Source: a virus
Length of the DNA stretch: 64,000 bases
IMG/VR virus record: IMGVR_UViG_3300009130_000005
Coordinates: 1 to 64,000 of that record
Strand: one strand, 5' to 3'
Shown: positions 31,800-58,619 of the stretch, piece after piece
Position numbering within the stretch: the stretch's first letter is position 1
Layout: each line of letters starts with the position of its first letter
Notes under the pieces: generated by a model
Seen by the model: only the letters and a program-made list of their open reading frames with translations
Databases searched by the model: none
What the model was told of the DNA's origin: nothing
Made by a program: the position numbers and the translations under genes

Positions 31800-32543
31800 A
31801 TGATACCGCTTTTTAAATCTCACTTTAGTATAGGAAAGAGCATCTTAACCCTAGGGGACGAGTCTCCAGAAGGGGGTTCAGACGGAATCTTCGAGATCGC
31901 TAAAACCAATAACCTTAGTGAAGTTGTATTAGTTGAAGATTCCCTAACAGGATTTCTTGAGGCAGCAAAAAAGAGCGAATCCTTGGGAATAAAACTAATC
32001 TTTGGCCTAAGACTAACAGCTTGCGAGGGAACTTCGACTGAAAATAATTGCCATAAAATAATCGTTTTTGCTAAGAATGATTCAGGATGCAAGCTATTAA
32101 ACAAGGTATACAGTGAAGCATTCAAAGGGGAGACGCCAGCAATAGACATCAGAAAACTTAAAGAAGTCTGGAACGAAGAAAGCCTAAAGCTTGCGATACC
32201 CTTTTATGATTCTTTTATATTTAACAACACAATGTCTTTTGCAAATTGTGTGCCAAGCTTTAATTTTACAAAGCCAACGCTTTTTATAGAGAACAATCAA
32301 CTACCATTTGATGGTCTGATCAAGGAAAGGGTAGAGAGGTTTGCGTCTCAAAAAAATCTTGATACAGAAAAAGTAAAGACAATTTATTATAAAAACAGAG
32401 AAGACTTTGAGGCATTCCAAACATATAAATGTATTTGCAATAGAACAGGATGGGGAGGAAGGGCCGTATCAATACAAAAGCCAAACTTAGACCATTGCGG
32501 TAGTAGAGAATTCTGCCTAGAAAGCTGGAAGGAGCAAGTATGA
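31800..32543 (+). CDS. Stand-alone PHP domain of DNA polymerase III alpha (metal ligands degenerate)
   Basis: KSHFS, GIKLIFGLRL, IVFAKNDSGCKLL, match the DnaE N-terminus. Confidence 0.8.
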   Translation: MIPLFKSHFSIGKSILTLGDESPEGGSDGIFEIAKTNNLSEVVLVEDSLTGFLEAAKKSESLGIKLIFGLRLTACEGTSTENNCHKIIVFAKNDSGCKLLNKVYSEAFKGETPAIDIRKLKEVWNEESLKLAIPFYDSFIFNNTMSFANCVPSFNFTKPTLFIENNQLPFDGLIKERVERFASQKNLDTEKVKTIYYKNREDFEAFQTYKCICNRTGWGGRAVSIQKPNLDHCGSREFCLESWKEQV

Positions 32544-33181
32544 AAGAAAACCTATTAAGATTTAAGAAGTCACAAAAGTATGTGATATTTGACTATGAAA
32601 CTTGTCACTTAAATTTGGCGAGCAGCGACAACAAACCTTGGCAACTTTCATTCATAGTTGCAGACCTTAACAAGGTTTACGAAAAACAAGATTATTATCT
32701 TAAATGGGATAATTTAAACATCTCAGACGAAGCAGCGAGAATTACTGGGTTTTCAAAAAAAACCTACGAAAAAAAGGCGGTTTGCCCCAAGAAAGCTTTA
32801 GATCATTTTGAAAAGTATCTTTATGATGACGATATTATCCCTCTGGGCCACAACGTTCTAGGCTTTGATGTTTATATTCACAATATCCACAGAAAGCTTT
32901 GCGGACAAAAACCAAACTTTTCTTACATTAAAAAAATAATTGATACGAATTGTTTGGCAAAAGCATCTGCAGAAAAAATTAAACTACCAGAACATGAAGA
33001 CAGAATAGCATGGCAGTATAGCTTGAATGGGTATATAAAGAGGGGTCTTAAGACAAGCCTGCAATTTTGTGCAAAAAAATATGGTATAGATTTTGACCCT
33101 AAAAAATTACATAACGCCTTGTATGATATATCAATAAACTACGAGGTATTCAAGAAACAGCTTTGGGATATAGAAATATGA
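32540..33181 (+). CDS. DEDDh 3'-5' exonuclease (DnaQ-like)
   Basis: FDYET, GHNVLGFD, LHNALYD. Confidence 0.88.
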   Translation: MKENLLRFKKSQKYVIFDYETCHLNLASSDNKPWQLSFIVADLNKVYEKQDYYLKWDNLNISDEAARITGFSKKTYEKKAVCPKKALDHFEKYLYDDDIIPLGHNVLGFDVYIHNIHRKLCGQKPNFSYIKKIIDTNCLAKASAEKIKLPEHEDRIAWQYSLNGYIKRGLKTSLQFCAKKYGIDFDPKKLHNALYDISINYEVFKKQLWDIEI

Positions 33182-35736
33182 GTTTCACAAAAGAATTCGA
33201 ACAATACTCAGACTACGCTCCTCCAGGAGTTAGGCTACCAAAAATTAAGATCGAGAGTAGATACTACAAGCAACTAGGAACTTCTTCAGATATATCTAAC
33301 TACGAATTCCTGAGAGAGCTTTGTCTAAAAGCGGTAAAGGACAAGAAGATTTCCAAGCTTCCCAATAAAAAAGTTTACTACGAAAGAATAAAGGAAGAAC
33401 TCTCTATATTGCAAGAGCTTGGATTTGTTGACTACATATTACTTAACTGGGATATTCTAAACTTTTGCCACGAAAGCAACATACCAACAGGTCCAGGCAG
33501 AGGCTCAGCAGCAGGCTCTTTAATTTTATTTTTAATTGGAGTTACTCAAGTAGACCCTATTAAATACGATTTGTTTTTCGAGAGGTTTGTGTCTAAAAGT
33601 AGAGCAAAGAAGGTTGAGAAAGATGGAGTGACCTACCTTGATGGCAGCTTGCTTGCAGATGTTGATAATGACATAGCTTATGAACATAGGCAAAAAGTAA
33701 TCAAATACATTGAAGACAAGTATCCCAGCAGAACTTGTAAAATTTTAACACTTAATACTCTAACAGCAAAGCTTTGCGCTAAAGAGTGCGGTAAGATTGT
33801 TGGAGGCTTTTCAGAGCAAGAGGTTAACGAGGTGAGCGATTTAATTCCAAAAAAGTTTGGAAAAGTTGCTCCATTAAAAGATGCAGAGAAAGAGAGTGAG
33901 CCATTCGCAAAATGGGCAAAAGAAAACCCTCAAGTATTTAAAATCGCAAAAAAGATAGAGGGCTTAAATAAAAATACTGGCGTACACCCAAGTGGAATAG
34001 CAATCTCTTACCAAAAGCTAGAGGAAATATGCCCACTTCAGACTACATCAGACGGAGACATTGTAAGCGGGTACGATATGAACTGGGTAGCAGAGCTCAT
34101 GGTCAAGTTTGATATTTTAGGGCTCAGGACTCTCAGTGTTATTTATAATACATGCCAAGAAATAGGCATTAACCCCAACGATATTAACCTTGAGAGCAAG
34201 GATATATATTCAAATTTGCAAAACTTAATTACGCCACACGGAATATTTCAAATTGAGGCTGACACAGATTTCAGGGTATGCAGGAAGCTTAAACCCAGAA
34301 ACCTAGATGAATTGAGTGCAGTAATAGCAATTGCTAGGCCAGGAGCATTAGACTTCTTAGATAACTATTCTCGCTATAGAGAGACTTCTGAGTTTCAAAG
34401 CGTACATAGTTTATTTGACGATATATTGAGAAGCACGGCGGGAATACCATTATACCAAGAGCAGCTCATGCAAATGGCTGTAAAGGTAGGCTTTACTCTT
34501 GATGAAGCGGAGCAATTGAGAAGAATTGTAGGAAAGAAAAAGGTTGACAAAATGCCAGCGTGGAAAAAGAAAATTAAAGACAAGATAGAAGAAGGAGGCT
34601 TCGATGAAGAAGCAGGAGAAATACTATGGAGGGTTGCAGAGGATAGCGCAAACTATTCATTTAATAAATCTCACAGCATAAGCTATTCTTTTTTGGCTGC
34701 ATGGACGACTTACCTAAAATTTAAATACCCTCAGGAATTTTTCTTAAGTCTACTTAAAATGACCAAATTTGAACCTTCACCCCAAGAAGAAATCAATAAA
34801 GTTTGTCAGGAGTTGCCAAGATTTAACTTTGAATTATTACCGCCCGATCTAGGGCTGTCTCGAATGGATTTCTCTAGAGAAGGGGACAATATAAGGTTTG
34901 GACTAAATAGCATCAAAGGGGTTAGCGAGAAGTCTCTAGAAGCCTTAAGGAGTTTCAGAGAGACAGAAACTCCCAACAAATACGATGTCTTTATGTCTGC
35001 AAAGCAAGCAGGACTCAACATAGGAATACTCTCAGCACTCATACAAGCGGGAGCACTTTCATCCTACAAGCAAAATAGGTCACTGCTGGTTCTAGAAGCG
35101 CAAGCATTCAACCTATTAACTGAAAGAGAAAAAAGAAACGTCTATATCTTGGGAGAAAAGTACGATTATAAACTTTTAAAATGTATTGCTGATGCAAAAA
35201 ACAATGAACTAATAGGGGATGACGGCAGAAAAATTATGACCCTAAAGCGCTTCGAAACATTCAGAAAAAAGTTTGATCTTTATAAGAAAATATACGAAAA
35301 GAATAAAAAGTATGAGAGTTTTGCCAACTGGTATTTTGAAAATAAGCTATTAGGATATAGCTACACAAGCCGACTTAAAGATATATTCCAAAGCGATATA
35401 GCAAAATTTAAAGACACAATCTGTTTTGAATCCATGGAGAAAGATTCTAGAGATAGGTTCATAGGAACAATAACAGATGTTTTCAAGAAAAAGTCTCAAA
35501 ACGGCAACTCTTATTTAAAACTAACGCTTTCTGATGAAGTGGGAAGCATGCAGGCTATTATAGGAGACTGGGGCAACAGACAAAAACTAACAAACTACCT
35601 TAATAAAGGAAATGCTATGCCCGAAAAAGGTAATATAGTTAGCGTACTGGGAGCAAAAGGAGACGACATTCTTTTTATGGATGACATTAATATATTAGAT
35701 AAGAAAATTTATATGAAGCTCAGCGAGCTAAAGTAA
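33178..35736 (+). CDS. dnaE: DNA polymerase III alpha catalytic core lacking PHP
   Basis: GPGRGSAAGSL, LFFERF, ADVDND, GVHPSG, VKFDILGL, YQEQLM, YSFNKSH. Confidence 0.93.
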   Translation: MSFTKEFEQYSDYAPPGVRLPKIKIESRYYKQLGTSSDISNYEFLRELCLKAVKDKKISKLPNKKVYYERIKEELSILQELGFVDYILLNWDILNFCHESNIPTGPGRGSAAGSLILFLIGVTQVDPIKYDLFFERFVSKSRAKKVEKDGVTYLDGSLLADVDNDIAYEHRQKVIKYIEDKYPSRTCKILTLNTLTAKLCAKECGKIVGGFSEQEVNEVSDLIPKKFGKVAPLKDAEKESEPFAKWAKENPQVFKIAKKIEGLNKNTGVHPSGIAISYQKLEEICPLQTTSDGDIVSGYDMNWVAELMVKFDILGLRTLSVIYNTCQEIGINPNDINLESKDIYSNLQNLITPHGIFQIEADTDFRVCRKLKPRNLDELSAVIAIARPGALDFLDNYSRYRETSEFQSVHSLFDDILRSTAGIPLYQEQLMQMAVKVGFTLDEAEQLRRIVGKKKVDKMPAWKKKIKDKIEEGGFDEEAGEILWRVAEDSANYSFNKSHSISYSFLAAWTTYLKFKYPQEFFLSLLKMTKFEPSPQEEINKVCQELPRFNFELLPPDLGLSRMDFSREGDNIRFGLNSIKGVSEKSLEALRSFRETETPNKYDVFMSAKQAGLNIGILSALIQAGALSSYKQNRSLLVLEAQAFNLLTEREKRNVYILGEKYDYKLLKCIADAKNNELIGDDGRKIMTLKRFETFRKKFDLYKKIYEKNKKYESFANWYFENKLLGYSYTSRLKDIFQSDIAKFKDTICFESMEKDSRDRFIGTITDVFKKKSQNGNSYLKLTLSDEVGSMQAIIGDWGNRQKLTNYLNKGNAMPEKGNIVSVLGAKGDDILFMDDINILDKKIYMKLSELK

Positions 35737-35750
35737 GTGTAAAAATGAGT

Positions 35751-38201
35751 ATGGAACTAAAACCTAATTTCACGCCAAGAGCGCAAGAAGCAATTATTGG
35801 ATCAAGAACCATTGCGGAGAAATTCAACAAAAGAATGATTACAGAAAATCATTTATGCTTAAGCGTGGCGAGCACTCAAAGCATCAGCATAGCTGAGTTT
35901 TATGCGGCCTGCGGAATAGATCCTAAAAAAATTATAAAATTTATAAAAAGCAAACTTCAAAAAGGCCCTAAGCCACCAACAAACAAATCTTATTTTTCAA
36001 AGAAGTTTAAAGAAATACTCAACGGAGCAATCAAAGAAGCTCAAAAGTATGAACACGATTATGTTGGGGTAGAACACATCCTCCTATCTATTCTTGACAT
36101 GGAAAGCTCCTTGTTCTGTTTATTTTTAAGGTCAGAGGGTCTCGACTCTGATCAAGCAAAGCTAGCAATCAGGGCAAGATTTCTTGTTAGTGAGATGGAA
36201 AAAGAGCCATCGCGAGCCAGAGCAGAAAACATAATTCAATCTGAAGCTGCAACCATGTCGAACCCAAGCCAAAATGCGAACCTGTTAAAGTATTCCGTTA
36301 ACTTTAATTCCCTCGCGCAAGAGGGTAGATTTGATAATGTAATAGGAAGAGATCAAGAGATTAAAGATATGGCTGAAGTCCTATGCAGGAGATCAAAAAA
36401 CAACCCAATACTGCTAGGAGAACCTGGGGTAGGCAAAACTGCAGTTGTTGAAGGTCTAGCACAGGCAATAGTTGGTGGAAATGCTACAGATTTTCTTTTA
36501 AATAAAACAATATACTCTCTTGACCTTGCAGGAATGATCGCTGGAACAAAGTATAGAGGACAATTCGAGGAAAGATTAAAAAAAGTAATGGAAGAGATTG
36601 CAAATGATTCCACTGCAATTTTATTTATTGACGAAATACACACTTTAGTTGGAGCGGGAAGCGCAGAGGGAACTATGGATGCAGCAAACATACTCAAACC
36701 CTTGCTAGCGAGAGGAGAAATAATGTGTATTGGAGCTACAACAAGGGGTGAGTACAGAAAATCTATATTAAAAGATGGCGCCCTAGACAGAAGATTTCAA
36801 CCAATCTTAGTCGAAGAACCTTCGGAAGAAGAGTGCATTGAAATTCTAGAGGGTATAAAAGATAGGTATGAAAAGTTTCACGGGGTAGCTTATTCGAAAG
36901 AAGCATTAAGTAGAGCGGTTAAATTATCTAGTAGATACATTTTGGACAGACAACTTCCCGACAAAGCAATTGACCTTCTGGATCAAGCAGGATCCAAAGC
37001 GAAAATTAGAGGCTTCAAGAGGCCTCAGGAAGCAATTGCAATTGAACAAGAAATTACAGAGCTATATAAAAGTGAAGAAACTTCTAGTGAACCTCATATT
37101 GTAATCAGAAAAAGGGAAGAGTTACTAGAAAAGTATACCAAACTTATAGAAGACTGGGCAAACGAAGCGGTGAAAAAGAAAATTGACGTAGAAGAAGGTG
37201 ACATATATAAAGTTTTAACCCAAAAAACAGGAATCCCAACCGACGATCTTTCACAAACAGACAAAGATAGGGTATTAAAGTTACAACCAAACCTAAAAAA
37301 ATCAGTAATCGGCCAAGATGAAGCTGTCGAACAAATATGCAAATCAATTTTAAGAAATAAAGCTGGCTTAAACGATTCATCTCGACCCATTGGCTCCTTT
37401 TTATTCCTAGGGTCTAGTGGTGTAGGAAAAACTTATTTAGCAAAAAGGCTTTCAAGCCTTATGTTTGGGGGCGAAGACAACGTCATACAATTAGATATGT
37501 CTGAGTTCGGAGAAAAAGCCTCAACTTCTAAAATTTTAGGGTCTGCACCAGGCTATGTTGGCTACGAAGAAGGGGGTTCAATTATTGAAAAAATCAAAAA
37601 GAAACCTCATAGCGTTGTACTTTTTGATGAAATAGAAAAAGCTCACCCTGAAGTCACCAACTTATTACTTCAAATATTAGAAGAAGGAAAACTGACAGAT
37701 AGCTCAGGAAGACAGGCAAGCTTTCGCAATTGTATAATTATTATTACAGGCAATATCGGCTCTGGATTAACAAAGAAAACGAATCAAGTTGGCTTCGGCG
37801 CAAAAGATATCTCCAGCAAAGAAATCAAACAATCAATTATTGAAGAATCAAAGAAAATTTTAAAACCTGAATTAATAAATAGAATAGAATCGCCAATTAT
37901 ATTTAATAATTTTACAGAAAAAGAGCTTAAATTAATTGCTAACTTAGAACTGCAGTCCCTCGCACGAAGGGCAGAGGATAAAGCTGGCAAACTAAAATTC
38001 AATCCAAGCATAATAAACTATTTGTCAAAAAAAGCTTCAGCCATGAACGATGGAGCACGACCCATAAGGAAAATTATAAAAGACGAAATAGAAAACCCTC
38101 TTGCGGAATTACTAATGAAAGGAGACCTTGTGTCGGCAAATTTAACAACAGTTTCTTATTATAAAACCAAACAAGAGGTAAAATTCTCAATTAAAGAGTA
38201 A
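35751..38201 (+). CDS. clpC: ClpC/ClpA-family AAA+ unfoldase (alternative start 35745)
   Basis: Clp N-domain, GEPGVGKT, FIDEIH, LPDKAIDL, GSSGVGKT, PGYVGY, VGF ClpP-docking loop. Confidence 0.9.
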   Translation: MELKPNFTPRAQEAIIGSRTIAEKFNKRMITENHLCLSVASTQSISIAEFYAACGIDPKKIIKFIKSKLQKGPKPPTNKSYFSKKFKEILNGAIKEAQKYEHDYVGVEHILLSILDMESSLFCLFLRSEGLDSDQAKLAIRARFLVSEMEKEPSRARAENIIQSEAATMSNPSQNANLLKYSVNFNSLAQEGRFDNVIGRDQEIKDMAEVLCRRSKNNPILLGEPGVGKTAVVEGLAQAIVGGNATDFLLNKTIYSLDLAGMIAGTKYRGQFEERLKKVMEEIANDSTAILFIDEIHTLVGAGSAEGTMDAANILKPLLARGEIMCIGATTRGEYRKSILKDGALDRRFQPILVEEPSEEECIEILEGIKDRYEKFHGVAYSKEALSRAVKLSSRYILDRQLPDKAIDLLDQAGSKAKIRGFKRPQEAIAIEQEITELYKSEETSSEPHIVIRKREELLEKYTKLIEDWANEAVKKKIDVEEGDIYKVLTQKTGIPTDDLSQTDKDRVLKLQPNLKKSVIGQDEAVEQICKSILRNKAGLNDSSRPIGSFLFLGSSGVGKTYLAKRLSSLMFGGEDNVIQLDMSEFGEKASTSKILGSAPGYVGYEEGGSIIEKIKKKPHSVVLFDEIEKAHPEVTNLLLQILEEGKLTDSSGRQASFRNCIIIITGNIGSGLTKKTNQVGFGAKDISSKEIKQSIIEESKKILKPELINRIESPIIFNNFTEKELKLIANLELQSLARRAEDKAGKLKFNPSIINYLSKKASAMNDGARPIRKIIKDEIENPLAELLMKGDLVSANLTTVSYYKTKQEVKFSIKE

Positions 38202-38207
38202 AAAAAC

Positions 38208-38236
38208 TTGACTTTTGTCTATTTTTCGGGTAATCT
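38208..38236 (+). promoter_or_regulatory. sigma70-like promoter of tmRNA
   Basis: TTGACT-17 nt-TAATCT, followed by boxA-like AGATCTTTGAAAA. Confidence 0.6.
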
Positions 38237-38259
38237 ATAATAGATCTTTGAAAATTTAT

Positions 38260-38657
38260 GGGGGTGTTCTGGATTCGACTGATGTTGGATTCCTGCACCG
38301 CAAGTCGGAGATGCACTTGGCTTCGATACAAATGTGCAAAGCTTTACATGGCGCTAAAAACCGTGTTAGAGCCCTCGGTCTTAAGAACCGTCTCGCTGCA
38401 AAGCGTTTCGGCTTCAAGAGCCGTAAGCTCGCCTTAGCAGCTTAACCTGCTAACCTCTTACCTTTTGACGCAGATAAGGAGGATAAGGGGTCATCGATCT
38501 GCAAAACAGAAAAGGTTTACCTGTTAATAAACTGTAAATAATTGTAACAGGAAGTTCGATGTTAGTATCAACAACTCAAAAAGAAACTAACTAAACTTGT
38601 AGACGTGCTTGATTGAAGGCACTCAGGACGCGGGTTCAACTCCCGCCACCTCCACCA
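38260..38657 (+). ncRNA. ssrA: tmRNA
   Basis: GGGGGTG/CACCTCC acceptor stem with G3:U, GGATTCGAC, T-arm GCGGGTTCAACTCCCGC, ACCA end, pk1 (TGCAC/GTGCA + GCTT/AAGC), tag frame ending LALAA-stop. Confidence 0.95.
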
Positions 38658-49686: not shown

Positions 49687-49896
49687 GGAAGTTCTCGACG
49701 GAGGCTTCCTGTGGGTGACCGAACAAGCCTGTCGTTAGCGGGCTAAGGTATGCAGATTCCCTGTGGTGGGGTAGCAGAGTCCAATCGGATGAGCTAAAGA
49801 CCATATACCGAGTCTAATCTGTGGTTCGAAGTAGGAAAACATTGAACTGATGTTAACGCCGAAAAGTTGGAGGTATTCAGTAGTCCTTCCCCACAC
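49687..49896 (+). ncRNA. Unassigned structured non-coding RNA (~210 nt)
   Basis: GC-rich island without a long ORF between promoter and terminator; multiple helices, long-range TGTGGG/CCCACA pairing, possible pseudoknot. Confidence 0.72.
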
Positions 49897-49903
49897 TTAT
49901 TTT

Positions 49904-58451: not shown

Positions 58452-58527
<76 letters not shown>

Positions 58528-58533
58528 TTTTAT

Positions 58534-58619
58534 GCGGATGTGGCGGAATCGGTAGACGCTACGGACTTAAAATCCGTTGCCCATAGGGCGTGTGGGTTCA
58601 ATTCCCACCATCCGTACCA
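58534..58619 (+). tRNA. tRNA-Leu(TAA)
   Basis: GCGGATG/CATCCGT acceptor, ACGGA-CTTAAAA-TCCGT, long variable arm, encoded CCA. Confidence 0.93.

What the first reader, a model, noticed from the sequence alone, without database searches (positions are those of the whole stretch)
35751..38657. tmRNA with a 31-aa, highly basic, acid-free tag directly downstream of a Clp unfoldase
Seen: after pk1, TACAT-GGC fits the UA-N3-resume spacing, giving the tag (A)GAKNRVRALGLKNRLAAKRFGFKSRKLALAA (38350-38445): 10 K/R, no D/E, LAA end. Established: typical tags are ~10 aa with acidic residues (ANDENYALAA) and go to ClpXP/ClpAP. Inference: the tmRNA and adjacent ClpC-like ATPase (with a ClpP-docking VGF loop) may form a private ribosome-rescue and proteolysis circuit, with a tag tuned to the phage unfoldase or with a second role such as nucleic-acid or membrane binding.
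Basis: partly seen in the sequence, partly recalled or inferred. Interest (0 to 1): 0.8.

Follow-up and report, generated by a model that had tools for sequence, protein, structure and literature searches.

The report
Phage tmRNA with long basic tag
An uncultured marine phage carries its own ribosome-rescue RNA (tmRNA) that adds a 31-residue, strongly positive tail to unfinished proteins; the RNA and tail are real and conserved, but similar positive tails also occur in some bacteria and a working link to the neighbouring ClpC unfolding enzyme is not shown.

Summary
Observation confirmed. Rfam places a full-length one-piece tmRNA at 38260-38657 (132 bits). Its resume codon is GGC at 38350. The tag is GAKNRVRALGLKNRLAAKRFGFKSRKLALAA: 31 residues, 10 K/R, no D/E. 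The gene 58 nt upstream is a ClpC-type double AAA+ ATPase with a VGF loop.

I found 13 more phage or metagenome contigs with this tmRNA family. Eleven tags have 31 codons, one has 32, and two have a 20-codon near-neutral version. Changes are mostly synonymous and indels stay in frame, so the tag is read as a peptide. Short contigs from four RNA libraries lie on the tmRNA.

The "private circuit" reading is weak. ClpC is directly upstream in 4 of 13 assessable contigs, always behind PolIII-alpha, and also beside the short near-neutral tag. Four of five such genomes tested have ClpX.

This scan flagged the same kind of tmRNA before, in at least 14 other genomes. Verdict: new variant of a known kind, moderate interest.

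The parts
35745..38201 (+). ClpC-type class I AAA+ unfoldase gene, 818 aa (alternative start at 35751). It has an N-domain, D1, a short M-domain, D2 and a VGF loop at residues 682-684.
   Evidence: Pfam domains. phrog_4871, E 6e-237. One ungapped-type stretch against B. subtilis ClpC, 8-796 to 5-787, E 1.3e-194, whereas ClpB hits split in two. Walker A/B, pore-loop residues and G-F of the loop are invariant in 6 phage ClpCs.
38208..38239 (+). Upstream region of the tmRNA: a -35-like TTGACT (38208-38213) and a CTATA box (38235-38239) 21-25 nt before the mature 5' end. Possible own promoter (inference).
   Evidence: CTATA is invariant in the window, L018 and L019; TTGACT is shared with L018 only. 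The sigma-70 consensus scan did not flag a site here.
38260..38657 (+). One-piece tmRNA (ssrA) gene, 398 nt, with encoded CCA.
   Evidence: RF00023 at 132.1 bits, model 1-374. 87-93% identical copies in L018-L021.
38260..38266 (+). 5' strand of the acceptor stem (GGGGGUG). It pairs with 38647-38653 and gives a G3-U70 wobble, the alanine identity pair by established knowledge.
   Evidence: Read from the sequence and the Rfam structure line.
38312..38338 (+). Hairpin of pseudoknot 1.
   Evidence: Rfam alignment. Both arms are changed in L020/L021 with pairing kept.
38345..38352 (+). U-A at -5/-4, a 3-nt spacer, and the resume codon GGC (38350-38352).
   Evidence: Rfam aligns model positions 93-95 here. 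ARAGORN calls the same start in 8 relatives. TACATGGC is kept in all 14 family members.
38350..38448 (+). Tag reading frame: 31 codons plus TAA.
   Evidence: Translation. Codon-position pattern and in-frame indels in relatives.
38369..38430 (+). Long imperfect hairpin (21 pairs) inside the tag frame. It accounts for the 60-nt excess over the Rfam consensus.
   Evidence: RNAalifold and MFE folds. 96.7-100% of cells are paired in 9 distinct sequences, with no double compensatory change.
38434..38453 (+). Helix 5, with the stop codon in its loop.
   Evidence: Rfam structure line. 7 invariant pairs.
38626..38657 (+). T-arm, 3' acceptor strand and CCA.
   Evidence: Rfam. This 32-mer recurs in tmRNAs of many phyla.

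Best explanation
This is a working phage-encoded one-piece tmRNA.

Inferred mechanism, from established tmRNA biology:
- It is probably made from its own start just after clpC and trimmed to the 398-nt form.
- Host AlaRS charges it with alanine (the G3-U70 pair is present).
- Host SmpB brings it to ribosomes stalled on broken mRNAs, which should be plentiful in an infected cell.
- Translation resumes at GGC and adds (A)GAKNRVRALGLKNRLAAKRFGFKSRKLALAA.
- The ribosome is freed for phage protein synthesis.
- The tagged chain is most likely destroyed through its C-terminal L-A-A by the host's ClpXP, and perhaps also by the phage ClpC working on host ClpP.

The long basic middle of the tag is a lineage trait, not a phage invention. 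Related basic tags exist on chromosomal tmRNAs of one verrucomicrobial order, the likely source and host lineage. The phage version is the extreme case.

Shown here: the RNA family, the reading frame, selection on the peptide, and presence in RNA libraries. Inferred: charging, use of SmpB, and which protease reads the tag.
For: - Full-length RF00023 match; tRNA-like end with G3-U70 and CCA.
- 13 further contigs carry the family.
- Among 11 tags of 31 codons (9 distinct DNAs), 22 sites vary: 12 at codon position 3, 8 at position 1, 2 at position 2. Of 14 variable codons, 7 are purely synonymous and the rest are mostly conservative (L/F, L/I, S/G, K/Q).
- By my count of steps, 14 of 25 changes are synonymous (binomial p 0.0009 against 25%).
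- Length changes stay in frame: +3 nt in L231, -33 nt in L229/L230.
- pk1 changes on both arms in L020/L021.
- Contigs of 258-423 nt from 4 marine metatranscriptome libraries lie on 38268-38645. Two of them differ at only 2-3 letters.
- Bacterial parallel: in the order of G004, 8 of 70 examined tmRNAs have tags with net charge of +4 or more. They sit in chromosomal contexts: cinA next door, a class I aminoacyl-tRNA synthetase, gpsA, PFOR.
- L180 and L181 tmRNAs are 83% identical, yet their tags differ by 4 synonymous and 0 non-synonymous codons.
- ClpX is over its cut-off in 4 of 5 such genomes.
Against: - No SmpB was found in the phage record, which is 76% complete, so function depends on an unknown host's SmpB.
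- The host is not identified. No sampled genome has a close DNA match: only the 3' end matched, in 88 of 301 genomes of the phylum. In the tmRNA tree the phage clade sits on a long branch (0.75) without resolved kin.
- The tag region also folds into a 21-pair hairpin that is kept in all 9 distinct sequences. Unpaired columns vary more than paired ones (10 of 20 against 10 of 42, p 0.048). Part of the conservation may therefore be structural rather than peptide-level.
- RNA-library contigs cannot prove transcription (the tool's own caveat).
- No experiment shows which protease reads a polybasic tag.
Confidence: 0.62

Rival explanations
1. Private tag-and-destroy circuit. The basic tag is tuned to the adjacent phage ClpC, which docks on host ClpP and selectively destroys chains tagged by the phage tmRNA, for instance to recycle amino acids.
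For: - clpC ends 58 nt before the tmRNA on the same strand.
- The order PolIII-alpha, ClpC, tmRNA recurs in L226, L228 and L229. ClpC lies one gene away in L227 and 6.1 kb away in L231.
- The [VLIF]-G-F loop, Walker motifs and pore-loop residues are kept in all 6 phage ClpCs.
- ClpC forms a phage clade of about 25 clusters at 56-82% identity, followed by a drop to 48%.
Against: - Adjacency holds in only 4 of 13 assessable contigs. In 7 contigs other genes lie upstream.
- L229 pairs ClpC with a 20-residue near-neutral tag, so ClpC does not track the basic tag.
- The ClpCs are only 41-67% identical to the window's while the tmRNAs are 80-93% identical.
- None of 14 more distant viral ClpC loci has a tmRNA within 4 kb.
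- No ClpP or ClpS was found in the record.
- By my reading, the ClpC N-domain is itself lysine-rich, not an obvious partner for a +10 peptide.
- Bacteria with basic tags keep ClpX.
Confidence: 0.12
2. The polybasic tag has a second or different role. It makes rescued chains stick to nucleic acid, membranes or polyanions, or it acts as a small cationic peptide module, with degradation secondary.
For: - All ten basic positions are kept in 10 of 11 31-codon tags; only K26Q changes, in L223/L224.
- The tag is the most basic seen here: net +10, against at most +8 in bacteria.
Against: - No test bears on it.
- The C-terminal LALAA is invariant in all 14 family members, as expected for a degradation signal.
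- Bacterial basic tags also end in [LM]AA.
Confidence: 0.1
3. Passenger gene. A host ssrA was picked up by a phage (for example through imprecise excision at an ssrA attachment site) and is carried without function.
For: Prophages often integrate at ssrA and carry fragments of it, as stated in passages of PMC9004378.
Against: - The gene is full length, not a 3' fragment.
- It is kept in 14 contigs with a coding-type substitution pattern.
- It has no close counterpart in 301 sampled genomes of the phylum.
- It is present in RNA libraries.
Confidence: 0.05
4. The real tag is short. Translation resumes much further 3', and the 60 extra nucleotides are only a structural hairpin insert.
For: The extra 60 nt fold into a conserved hairpin.
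Against: - Rfam and ARAGORN both place the resume codon at GGC.
- The UA-N3 context is invariant.
- The substitution pattern is frame-specific and indels are multiples of three.
- The other two frames hold 1 and 4 stops.
Confidence: 0.03

Closest known systems
Bacterial one-piece tmRNA (SsrA, Rfam RF00023), E. coli type with a 10-residue acidic tag
   Same: Full covariance-model match, tRNA-like domain with G3-U70 and CCA, pk1, resume-codon context, stop codon in the helix 5 loop, tag ending L-A-A.
   Different: The tag is three times longer, net +10, without acidic residues, and begins with Gly. It contains a 21-pair hairpin. The gene is on a phage, with no SmpB found in the record. In a cross-phylum sample, 0 of 109 ARAGORN-read tags had a net charge of +4 or more, and the median length was 10.
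Chromosomal tmRNAs of unnamed small-genome members of the GTDB order that holds G004 (Verrucomicrobiota; named members are labelled Opitutales or Puniceicoccales): G027, G045, G061, G072, G085, G094, G106, G115
   Same: Gly-first tags of 21-24 residues with 6-8 K/R and 0-1 acidic residue, ending [LM]AA, on 392-411-nt tmRNAs. One of them, GKKNVIRGLKFGKSKSYAMAA, resembles the phage tag by eye.
   Different: The tags are shorter. Whole-RNA identity to the phage tmRNA is only about 66-69% among the best rows. The tree does not join them to the phage clade. They lie in chromosomal contexts.
Previously reported phage tmRNAs: mycobacteriophages of the Bxz1 type and Bacillus phage G (PMC4131195), two-piece tmRNA of OM43 phage Melnitz and pelagimyophages (PMC9004378), huge phages (PMC7162821)
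   Same: A phage-encoded ssrA, thought to keep the translation apparatus running or to tag host proteins (passages read).
   Different: - Melnitz-type RNAs are two-piece.
- PMC9004378 says only 2.5% of one-piece phage tmRNAs in its survey were marine.
- None of the passages I read mentions a polybasic tag or a ClpC neighbour.
- Those surveys used ARAGORN, which misses this window's copy.
ClpC of Bacillus subtilis / Staphylococcus aureus and ClpC1 of Mycobacterium tuberculosis (PDB 3j3s, 6em8, 8a8u)
   Same: Same domain order, a short M-domain, and a VGF loop aligned with that of B. subtilis ClpC. E 1e-194 to 2e-185.
   Different: It is phage-encoded, in a clade of its own (56-82% identity inside, about 48% to the next proteins). 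No ClpP or ClpS was found in the record. MecA or McsB were not searched for.

Membership tests
tmRNA (SsrA), Rfam RF00023, one-piece form | Full-length match to the covariance model above the gathering score | tested here: met
   132.1 bits against a gathering score of 47, model positions 1-374 of 374. Relatives score 135-153 bits.
tmRNA (SsrA), Rfam RF00023, one-piece form | tRNA-like domain: 7-bp acceptor stem with G3-U70, T-arm, 3' CCA | tested here: met
   GGGGGUG (38260-38266) pairs with CACCUCC (38647-38653), giving G3-U70; CCA is encoded. That this pair is the identity element for AlaRS is established knowledge, not tested here.
tmRNA (SsrA), Rfam RF00023, one-piece form | Pseudoknot 1 just 5' of the resume codon | tested here: met
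   Rfam structure line. The hairpin arms differ on both sides between the window and L020/L021 with pairing kept.
tmRNA (SsrA), Rfam RF00023, one-piece form | Resume codon in the standard context (U-A at -5/-4, about 11 nt after pk1) | tested here: met
   ARAGORN gives the same start in 8 of 8 full-length relatives carrying a 31-codon tag in which it finds the gene.
tmRNA (SsrA), Rfam RF00023, one-piece form | Tag frame ending in hydrophobic X-A-A, with the stop codon in the helix 5 loop | tested here: met
   LALAA then TAA at 38446-38448, inside the loop of the 7-pair helix.
tmRNA (SsrA), Rfam RF00023, one-piece form | Tag evolves as a peptide | tested here: met
   12 of 22 variable sites are at codon position 3; 7 of 14 variable codons are purely synonymous; indels are +3 and -33 nt. 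Caveat: an overlapping hairpin.
tmRNA (SsrA), Rfam RF00023, one-piece form | Acts with SmpB and tags stalled nascent chains | not testable with these tools
   No SmpB was found in the 76%-complete phage record; a host SmpB would be needed.
ClpC-type class I Clp/Hsp100 unfoldase | Clp N-domain plus two AAA+ modules with Walker A/B and pore loops | tested here: met
   Pfam Clp_N, AAA, AAA_lid_9, AAA_2 and ClpB_D2-small. GxxGxGKT, DE, KYRG and GYVG positions are invariant in 6 phage copies.
ClpC-type class I Clp/Hsp100 unfoldase | Short M-domain (ClpC) rather than the long coiled coil of ClpB | tested here: met
   One continuous stretch to ClpC chains (query 8-796 to chain 5-787), whereas the ClpB and Hsp104 hits split into two stretches.
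ClpC-type class I Clp/Hsp100 unfoldase | ClpP-docking hydrophobic-Gly-Phe loop in D2 | tested here: met
   VGF at 682-684 aligns with VGF of B. subtilis ClpC. G and F are invariant in 6 phage ClpCs. That this loop docks ClpP is recalled knowledge.
ClpC-type class I Clp/Hsp100 unfoldase | Works with ClpP and an adaptor (MecA, McsB or ClpS) | not testable with these tools
   No ClpP or ClpS was found in the record. MecA and McsB were not searched.

The most novel reading that the evidence does not exclude
A worldwide group of large marine phages with a PolIII-alpha-ClpC module carries a viral tag-and-destroy system. The phage tmRNA marks chains from ribosomes stalled on degraded host mRNA with a polybasic tail. 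That tail is read by a recognition code different from the classical acidic-tag/SspB/ClpX route. Amino acids and ribosomes would thus be redirected to the phage.
Probability: 0.12. Interest if true: 0.75.

Novelty: new variant of a known kind. Interest (0 to 1): 0.45.

Why it matters
Work on tmRNA tags has centred on short acidic tags read by ClpX, ClpA and SspB. This finding shows a conserved phage tmRNA family, present in marine samples of several studies, with a net +10, 31-residue tag. It also shows that comparable basic tags are kept by selection on chromosomal tmRNAs of a verrucomicrobial order. That makes a concrete question testable: what reads a polybasic ssrA tag, and does the basic part change the fate of rescued proteins?

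There is also a practical point. ARAGORN, the program used in the published phage surveys I read, misses or misreads several of these genes, so such tags are probably under-counted. If a link to ClpC were shown, it would be the first viral tag-and-degrade module. On present evidence that link is only a possibility.

Tried and rejected
- GenBank phage collection: blastn with the tmRNA gave no match. tblastn with ClpC gave at most about 43% identity, mostly in records that look like host DNA.
- IMG/VR ClpC relatives L004-L017 (at most 45% identity): 0 of 14 have a tmRNA within 4 kb. They are too distant to say much.
- ClpC and PolIII-alpha in the records of L018, L019 and L021: neither was found. 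Because the polymerase is missing too, and the records are 24%, 76% and 11% complete, I do not claim these phages lack ClpC, only that it is not next to their tmRNA. The record of L020 is not held. ClpP was also not found in these three records.
- Internal duplication of the tag: the best self-match (offset 33 nt, 13 of 18) is reached by 237 of 2000 codon shuffles, so it is not significant.
- Donor or host by DNA identity: only the conserved 3' end matches, in 88 of 301 genomes of the phylum and in 5 of 5 genomes of other phyla. In the tree of 79 tmRNAs the phage clade sits on a long branch without resolved kin. The 3' 32-mer occurs in many phyla, so it names no host. Only the 5' 94 nt align, at 72-73%, with three Opitutia-type tmRNAs.
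- Promoter and terminator consensus scan: nothing flagged between clpC and the tmRNA.
- Covariation in the tag hairpin: no pair changes on both sides.
- RNA libraries: over clpC the four runs gave only pieces of about 40-50 nt at conserved AAA+ motifs, with loose ends on both sides, and nothing downstream of the tmRNA. Shares under 0.2 are not used.
- SmpB, ClpP and ClpS were not found in the window's own record, which is 76% complete.
- No complex-prediction job was sent. The report does not claim binding, and a ClpC hexamer with substrate exceeds the size limit. No structure prediction or fold search was needed.
- Literature: three full-text searches listed no paper on polybasic tmRNA tags or on a phage ClpC-tmRNA pair. 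I read only passages of PMC9004378, PMC7162821 and PMC4131195. The supplementary tables, such as the phage tmRNA list of PMC9004378, were not seen and may hold such tags. I did not consult the tmRNA Website data.
- Sampling caveat: of 111 tmRNAs found in 121 genomes of the order, I read 70. These were the 30 best-scoring, then the longest, then nine shorter ones. The 41 unread ones are all 359 nt or shorter, so they are unlikely to hold long tags.


Full report
**What is there.** The window is the first 64 kb of a 116,466-bp IMG/VR virus record that CheckV rates 76% complete. Rfam's tmRNA model (RF00023) matches 38260-38657 on the + strand over its whole length, at 132.1 bits and E 2e-51. The sequence shows a 7-bp acceptor stem with a G3-U70 wobble, a T-arm and an encoded CCA. 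Rfam aligns the model's resume codon to GGC at 38350-38352. This is 11 nt after pk1, with U-A at -5/-4. It shows a 60-nt excess over the consensus, entirely inside the tag frame. The frame reads GAKNRVRALGLKNRLAAKRFGFKSRKLALAA (5 K, 5 R, no D/E), and its TAA stop lies in the loop of helix 5. ARAGORN finds no tmRNA in the window. On near-identical relatives it does, and it calls the same start and the same tags in 8 of them.

**A family, and the frame is read.** DNA patterns from the RNA found 4 IMG/VR contigs (L018-L021) and 9 metagenome contigs (L223-L231). Eleven members, the window included, have 31-codon tags (9 distinct DNAs). L231 has 32 codons, from a 3-nt insertion. L229 and L230 carry a 363-nt tmRNA that is 80% identical to the window's. 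Its tag is 33 nt shorter and near neutral: GNKSRIQAYSPQSESLALAA. Among the 31-codon tags, 22 sites vary: 12 at codon position 3, 8 at position 1 and 2 at position 2. Seven of 14 variable codons are purely synonymous, and the others are mostly conservative. The only basic residue that changes is K26 to Q, in L223/L224. By my count of steps, 14 of 25 changes are synonymous (p 0.0009 against 25%). pk1 changes on both arms in L020/L021 with pairing kept.

One caveat applies. The extra 60 nt also fold into a 21-pair hairpin (38369-38430). It is paired in 96.7-100% of cells in all 9 distinct sequences, without any double compensatory change. Unpaired columns vary more than paired ones (p 0.048). Structure and peptide may therefore both be constrained. 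An internal duplication of the tag is not supported: 237 of 2000 shuffles reach the observed self-match.

**Expression hint.** Six marine metatranscriptome runs hold a small share of the words of the 2,956-nt query. I laid four of them. Each has contigs of 258-423 nt on 38268-38645, and two of these differ from the window at only 2-3 letters (X16, X19). Others match the 418-420-nt variant seen in L223-L225. Contigs cannot prove transcription, so this is a hint only.

**The neighbour.** ORF 35745-38201 (818 aa) has Clp_N, two AAA+ modules, AAA_lid_9 and the D2-small domain. It matches phrog_4871 over its full length. It aligns in one stretch with B. subtilis ClpC (E 1.3e-194), S. aureus ClpC and M. 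tuberculosis ClpC1, whereas ClpB hits split in two, so the M-domain is short. VGF at 682-684 lies under ClpC's VGF. That this loop docks ClpP is recalled knowledge. The protein belongs to a clade of about 25 clusters at 56-82% identity, on contigs of up to 207 kb, followed by a drop to 48%. No ClpP, ClpS or SmpB was found in the record.

**Synteny.** With the tmRNA on the + strand, the order PolIII-alpha, ClpC, tmRNA is found in four contigs:
- the window (gap 58 nt);
- L226 (ClpC 66-67% identical, gap 111 nt);
- L228 (59%, gap 264 nt);
- L229 (48%, gap 255 nt, short tag).

In L227 one 444-aa gene lies between ClpC and the tmRNA. In L231 six ORFs (6.1 kb) lie between. In L018, L019, L020, L021, L223, L224 and L225 other genes lie upstream. 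L230 is too short to tell. That gives 4 of 13 assessable contigs with direct adjacency and 6 of 13 with ClpC within 6.2 kb.

The records behind L018, L019 and L021 show neither ClpC nor PolIII-alpha, so absence of ClpC cannot be claimed for them. The genes more often kept near the tmRNA are the downstream APS-kinase fusion (5 contigs) and a nucleoside-deoxyribosyltransferase-like gene (7 contigs). The ClpCs are far more diverged (41-67%) than the tmRNAs (80-93%). L229's ClpC lacks the last approximately 70 residues. Nothing links the basic tag to ClpC beyond shared gene order in one part of the family.

**Host-lineage tags.** Only three Opitutia-type tmRNAs align over the 5' 94 nt, at 72-73%. 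In the GTDB order of one of them (G004), RF00023 hit 111 of 121 genomes, and I read 70 of those. Gly-first tags are the rule (41 of 70), the median length is 17 residues, and 13 have 20 or more. Eight have a net charge of +4 or more:
- L180 and L181: GIRNRRNRKVMKLSFGNKAKLAA
- L184 and L185: GVTSRKRRRVMKLCFS[GS]KAKLAA
- L183: GKNNKKNRRTTFRLLPKAAVRMAA
- L188: GKNKIRDGRNAFRRAAKLPAKLAA
- L186: GKKNVIRGLKFGKSKSYAMAA
- L179: GKNKKGKLVKGLFGRKARMAA

ARAGORN misreads three of these and misses two. They fall in two separate clades. Two that I checked lie in chromosomal contexts. L180 and L181, whose tmRNAs are 83% identical, differ by four synonymous and no non-synonymous codons in the tag. In the cross-phylum sample, 0 of 109 ARAGORN tags are that basic. 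Of five basic-tag genomes tested, four have ClpX over its cut-off, and all five have one ClpC/ClpB-like protein at 41-44% identity to the phage ClpC.

So long basic tags are a rare but real trait of a bacterial lineage, and the phage tag is its extreme. No sampled genome holds a close copy of the phage RNA, and its place in the tree is unresolved.

**Reading.**
- Best explanation (0.62): a functional phage tmRNA that relies on host AlaRS, SmpB and proteases. It frees ribosomes stalled on broken mRNA during infection. Its tag keeps the L-A-A degradation end, and its basic body is inherited from, and exaggerated relative to, a verrucomicrobial type.
- The private ClpC circuit (0.12) and a second role for the cationic tail (0.10) remain open but untested.
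- A passenger gene (0.05) and a short-tag reading (0.03) are unlikely.

**Known or new.** Phage tmRNAs are in print. PMC4131195 lists mycobacteriophages and Bacillus phage G. PMC9004378 counts 402 of 18,146 phage genomes with a tmRNA and describes two-piece forms in marine myophages. PMC7162821 reports tmRNA and SmpB in huge phages. I read passages only. Three full-text searches listed nothing on polybasic tags or on a ClpC-tmRNA pair, and supplements were closed.

This scan itself has flagged the same kind of tmRNA in at least 14 other genomes, and earlier follow-ups reached a like verdict.

I file the finding as a new variant of a known kind, interest 0.45.

Noticed in passing
window 38369-38430: The 60 extra nucleotides of the tag frame form a 21-pair imperfect hairpin kept in all 9 distinct family sequences. 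L229's short tag has a 6-bp hairpin at the same place by eye. A ribosome would have to unwind it. Whether it has a role of its own (processing, protein binding, pacing of translation) is unknown.
   Followed up: partly
window 38260-38657; L018; L179-L185; L229, L230: ARAGORN misses the tmRNA in the window, in L018 and in two bacterial genomes. It assigns wrong frames in three bacterial copies and two phage copies. Published phage tmRNA surveys that rely on it would under-count or misread this kind of tag.
   Followed up: yes
window 38453-38520, in RNA runs X15, X16, X19, X20: RNA-library contigs of 207-231 nt share the pk2 region (4-7 differences in 68 nt) but continue 5' into a different tag end, for example one reading ...ELALAA. 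A related tmRNA with another tag, from a host or another phage, is in the same waters.
   Followed up: no
L223 1255-1672; L224 3073-3490; L225 2345-2764 (-): A 418-420-nt variant of the family carries an insertion of about 20 nt in the 3' pseudoknot region (near window 38536-38542). The same variant appears as RNA-library contigs in X15 and X20.
   Followed up: no
L229 6700-8946: The ClpC next to the short-tag tmRNA ends about 70 residues early and lacks the end of the D2-small domain. This could be a real truncation, a frameshift or an assembly error.
   Followed up: no
window 31800-35736: The replicative polymerase is split into three genes: a PHP-like domain, an RNase T-type exonuclease, and a PolIII-alpha core. 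They sit directly ahead of clpC. The block PHP, exonuclease, PolIII-alpha, ClpC is kept in L228, L229 and L231.
   Followed up: partly
L219 762-1781; L220 6073-7178: In two bacterial genomes with basic tags, ssrA lies head to head with a cinA-like gene. One contig also holds a PFOR gene, which suggests an anaerobic or host-associated way of life for these roughly 0.9-1.0-Mb assemblies.
   Followed up: no
window 49687-49899 and 58452-58619: A manA RNA (RF01745, 83 bits) and tRNA-Thr(UGU) and tRNA-Leu(UAA) genes lie in the same window.
   Followed up: no
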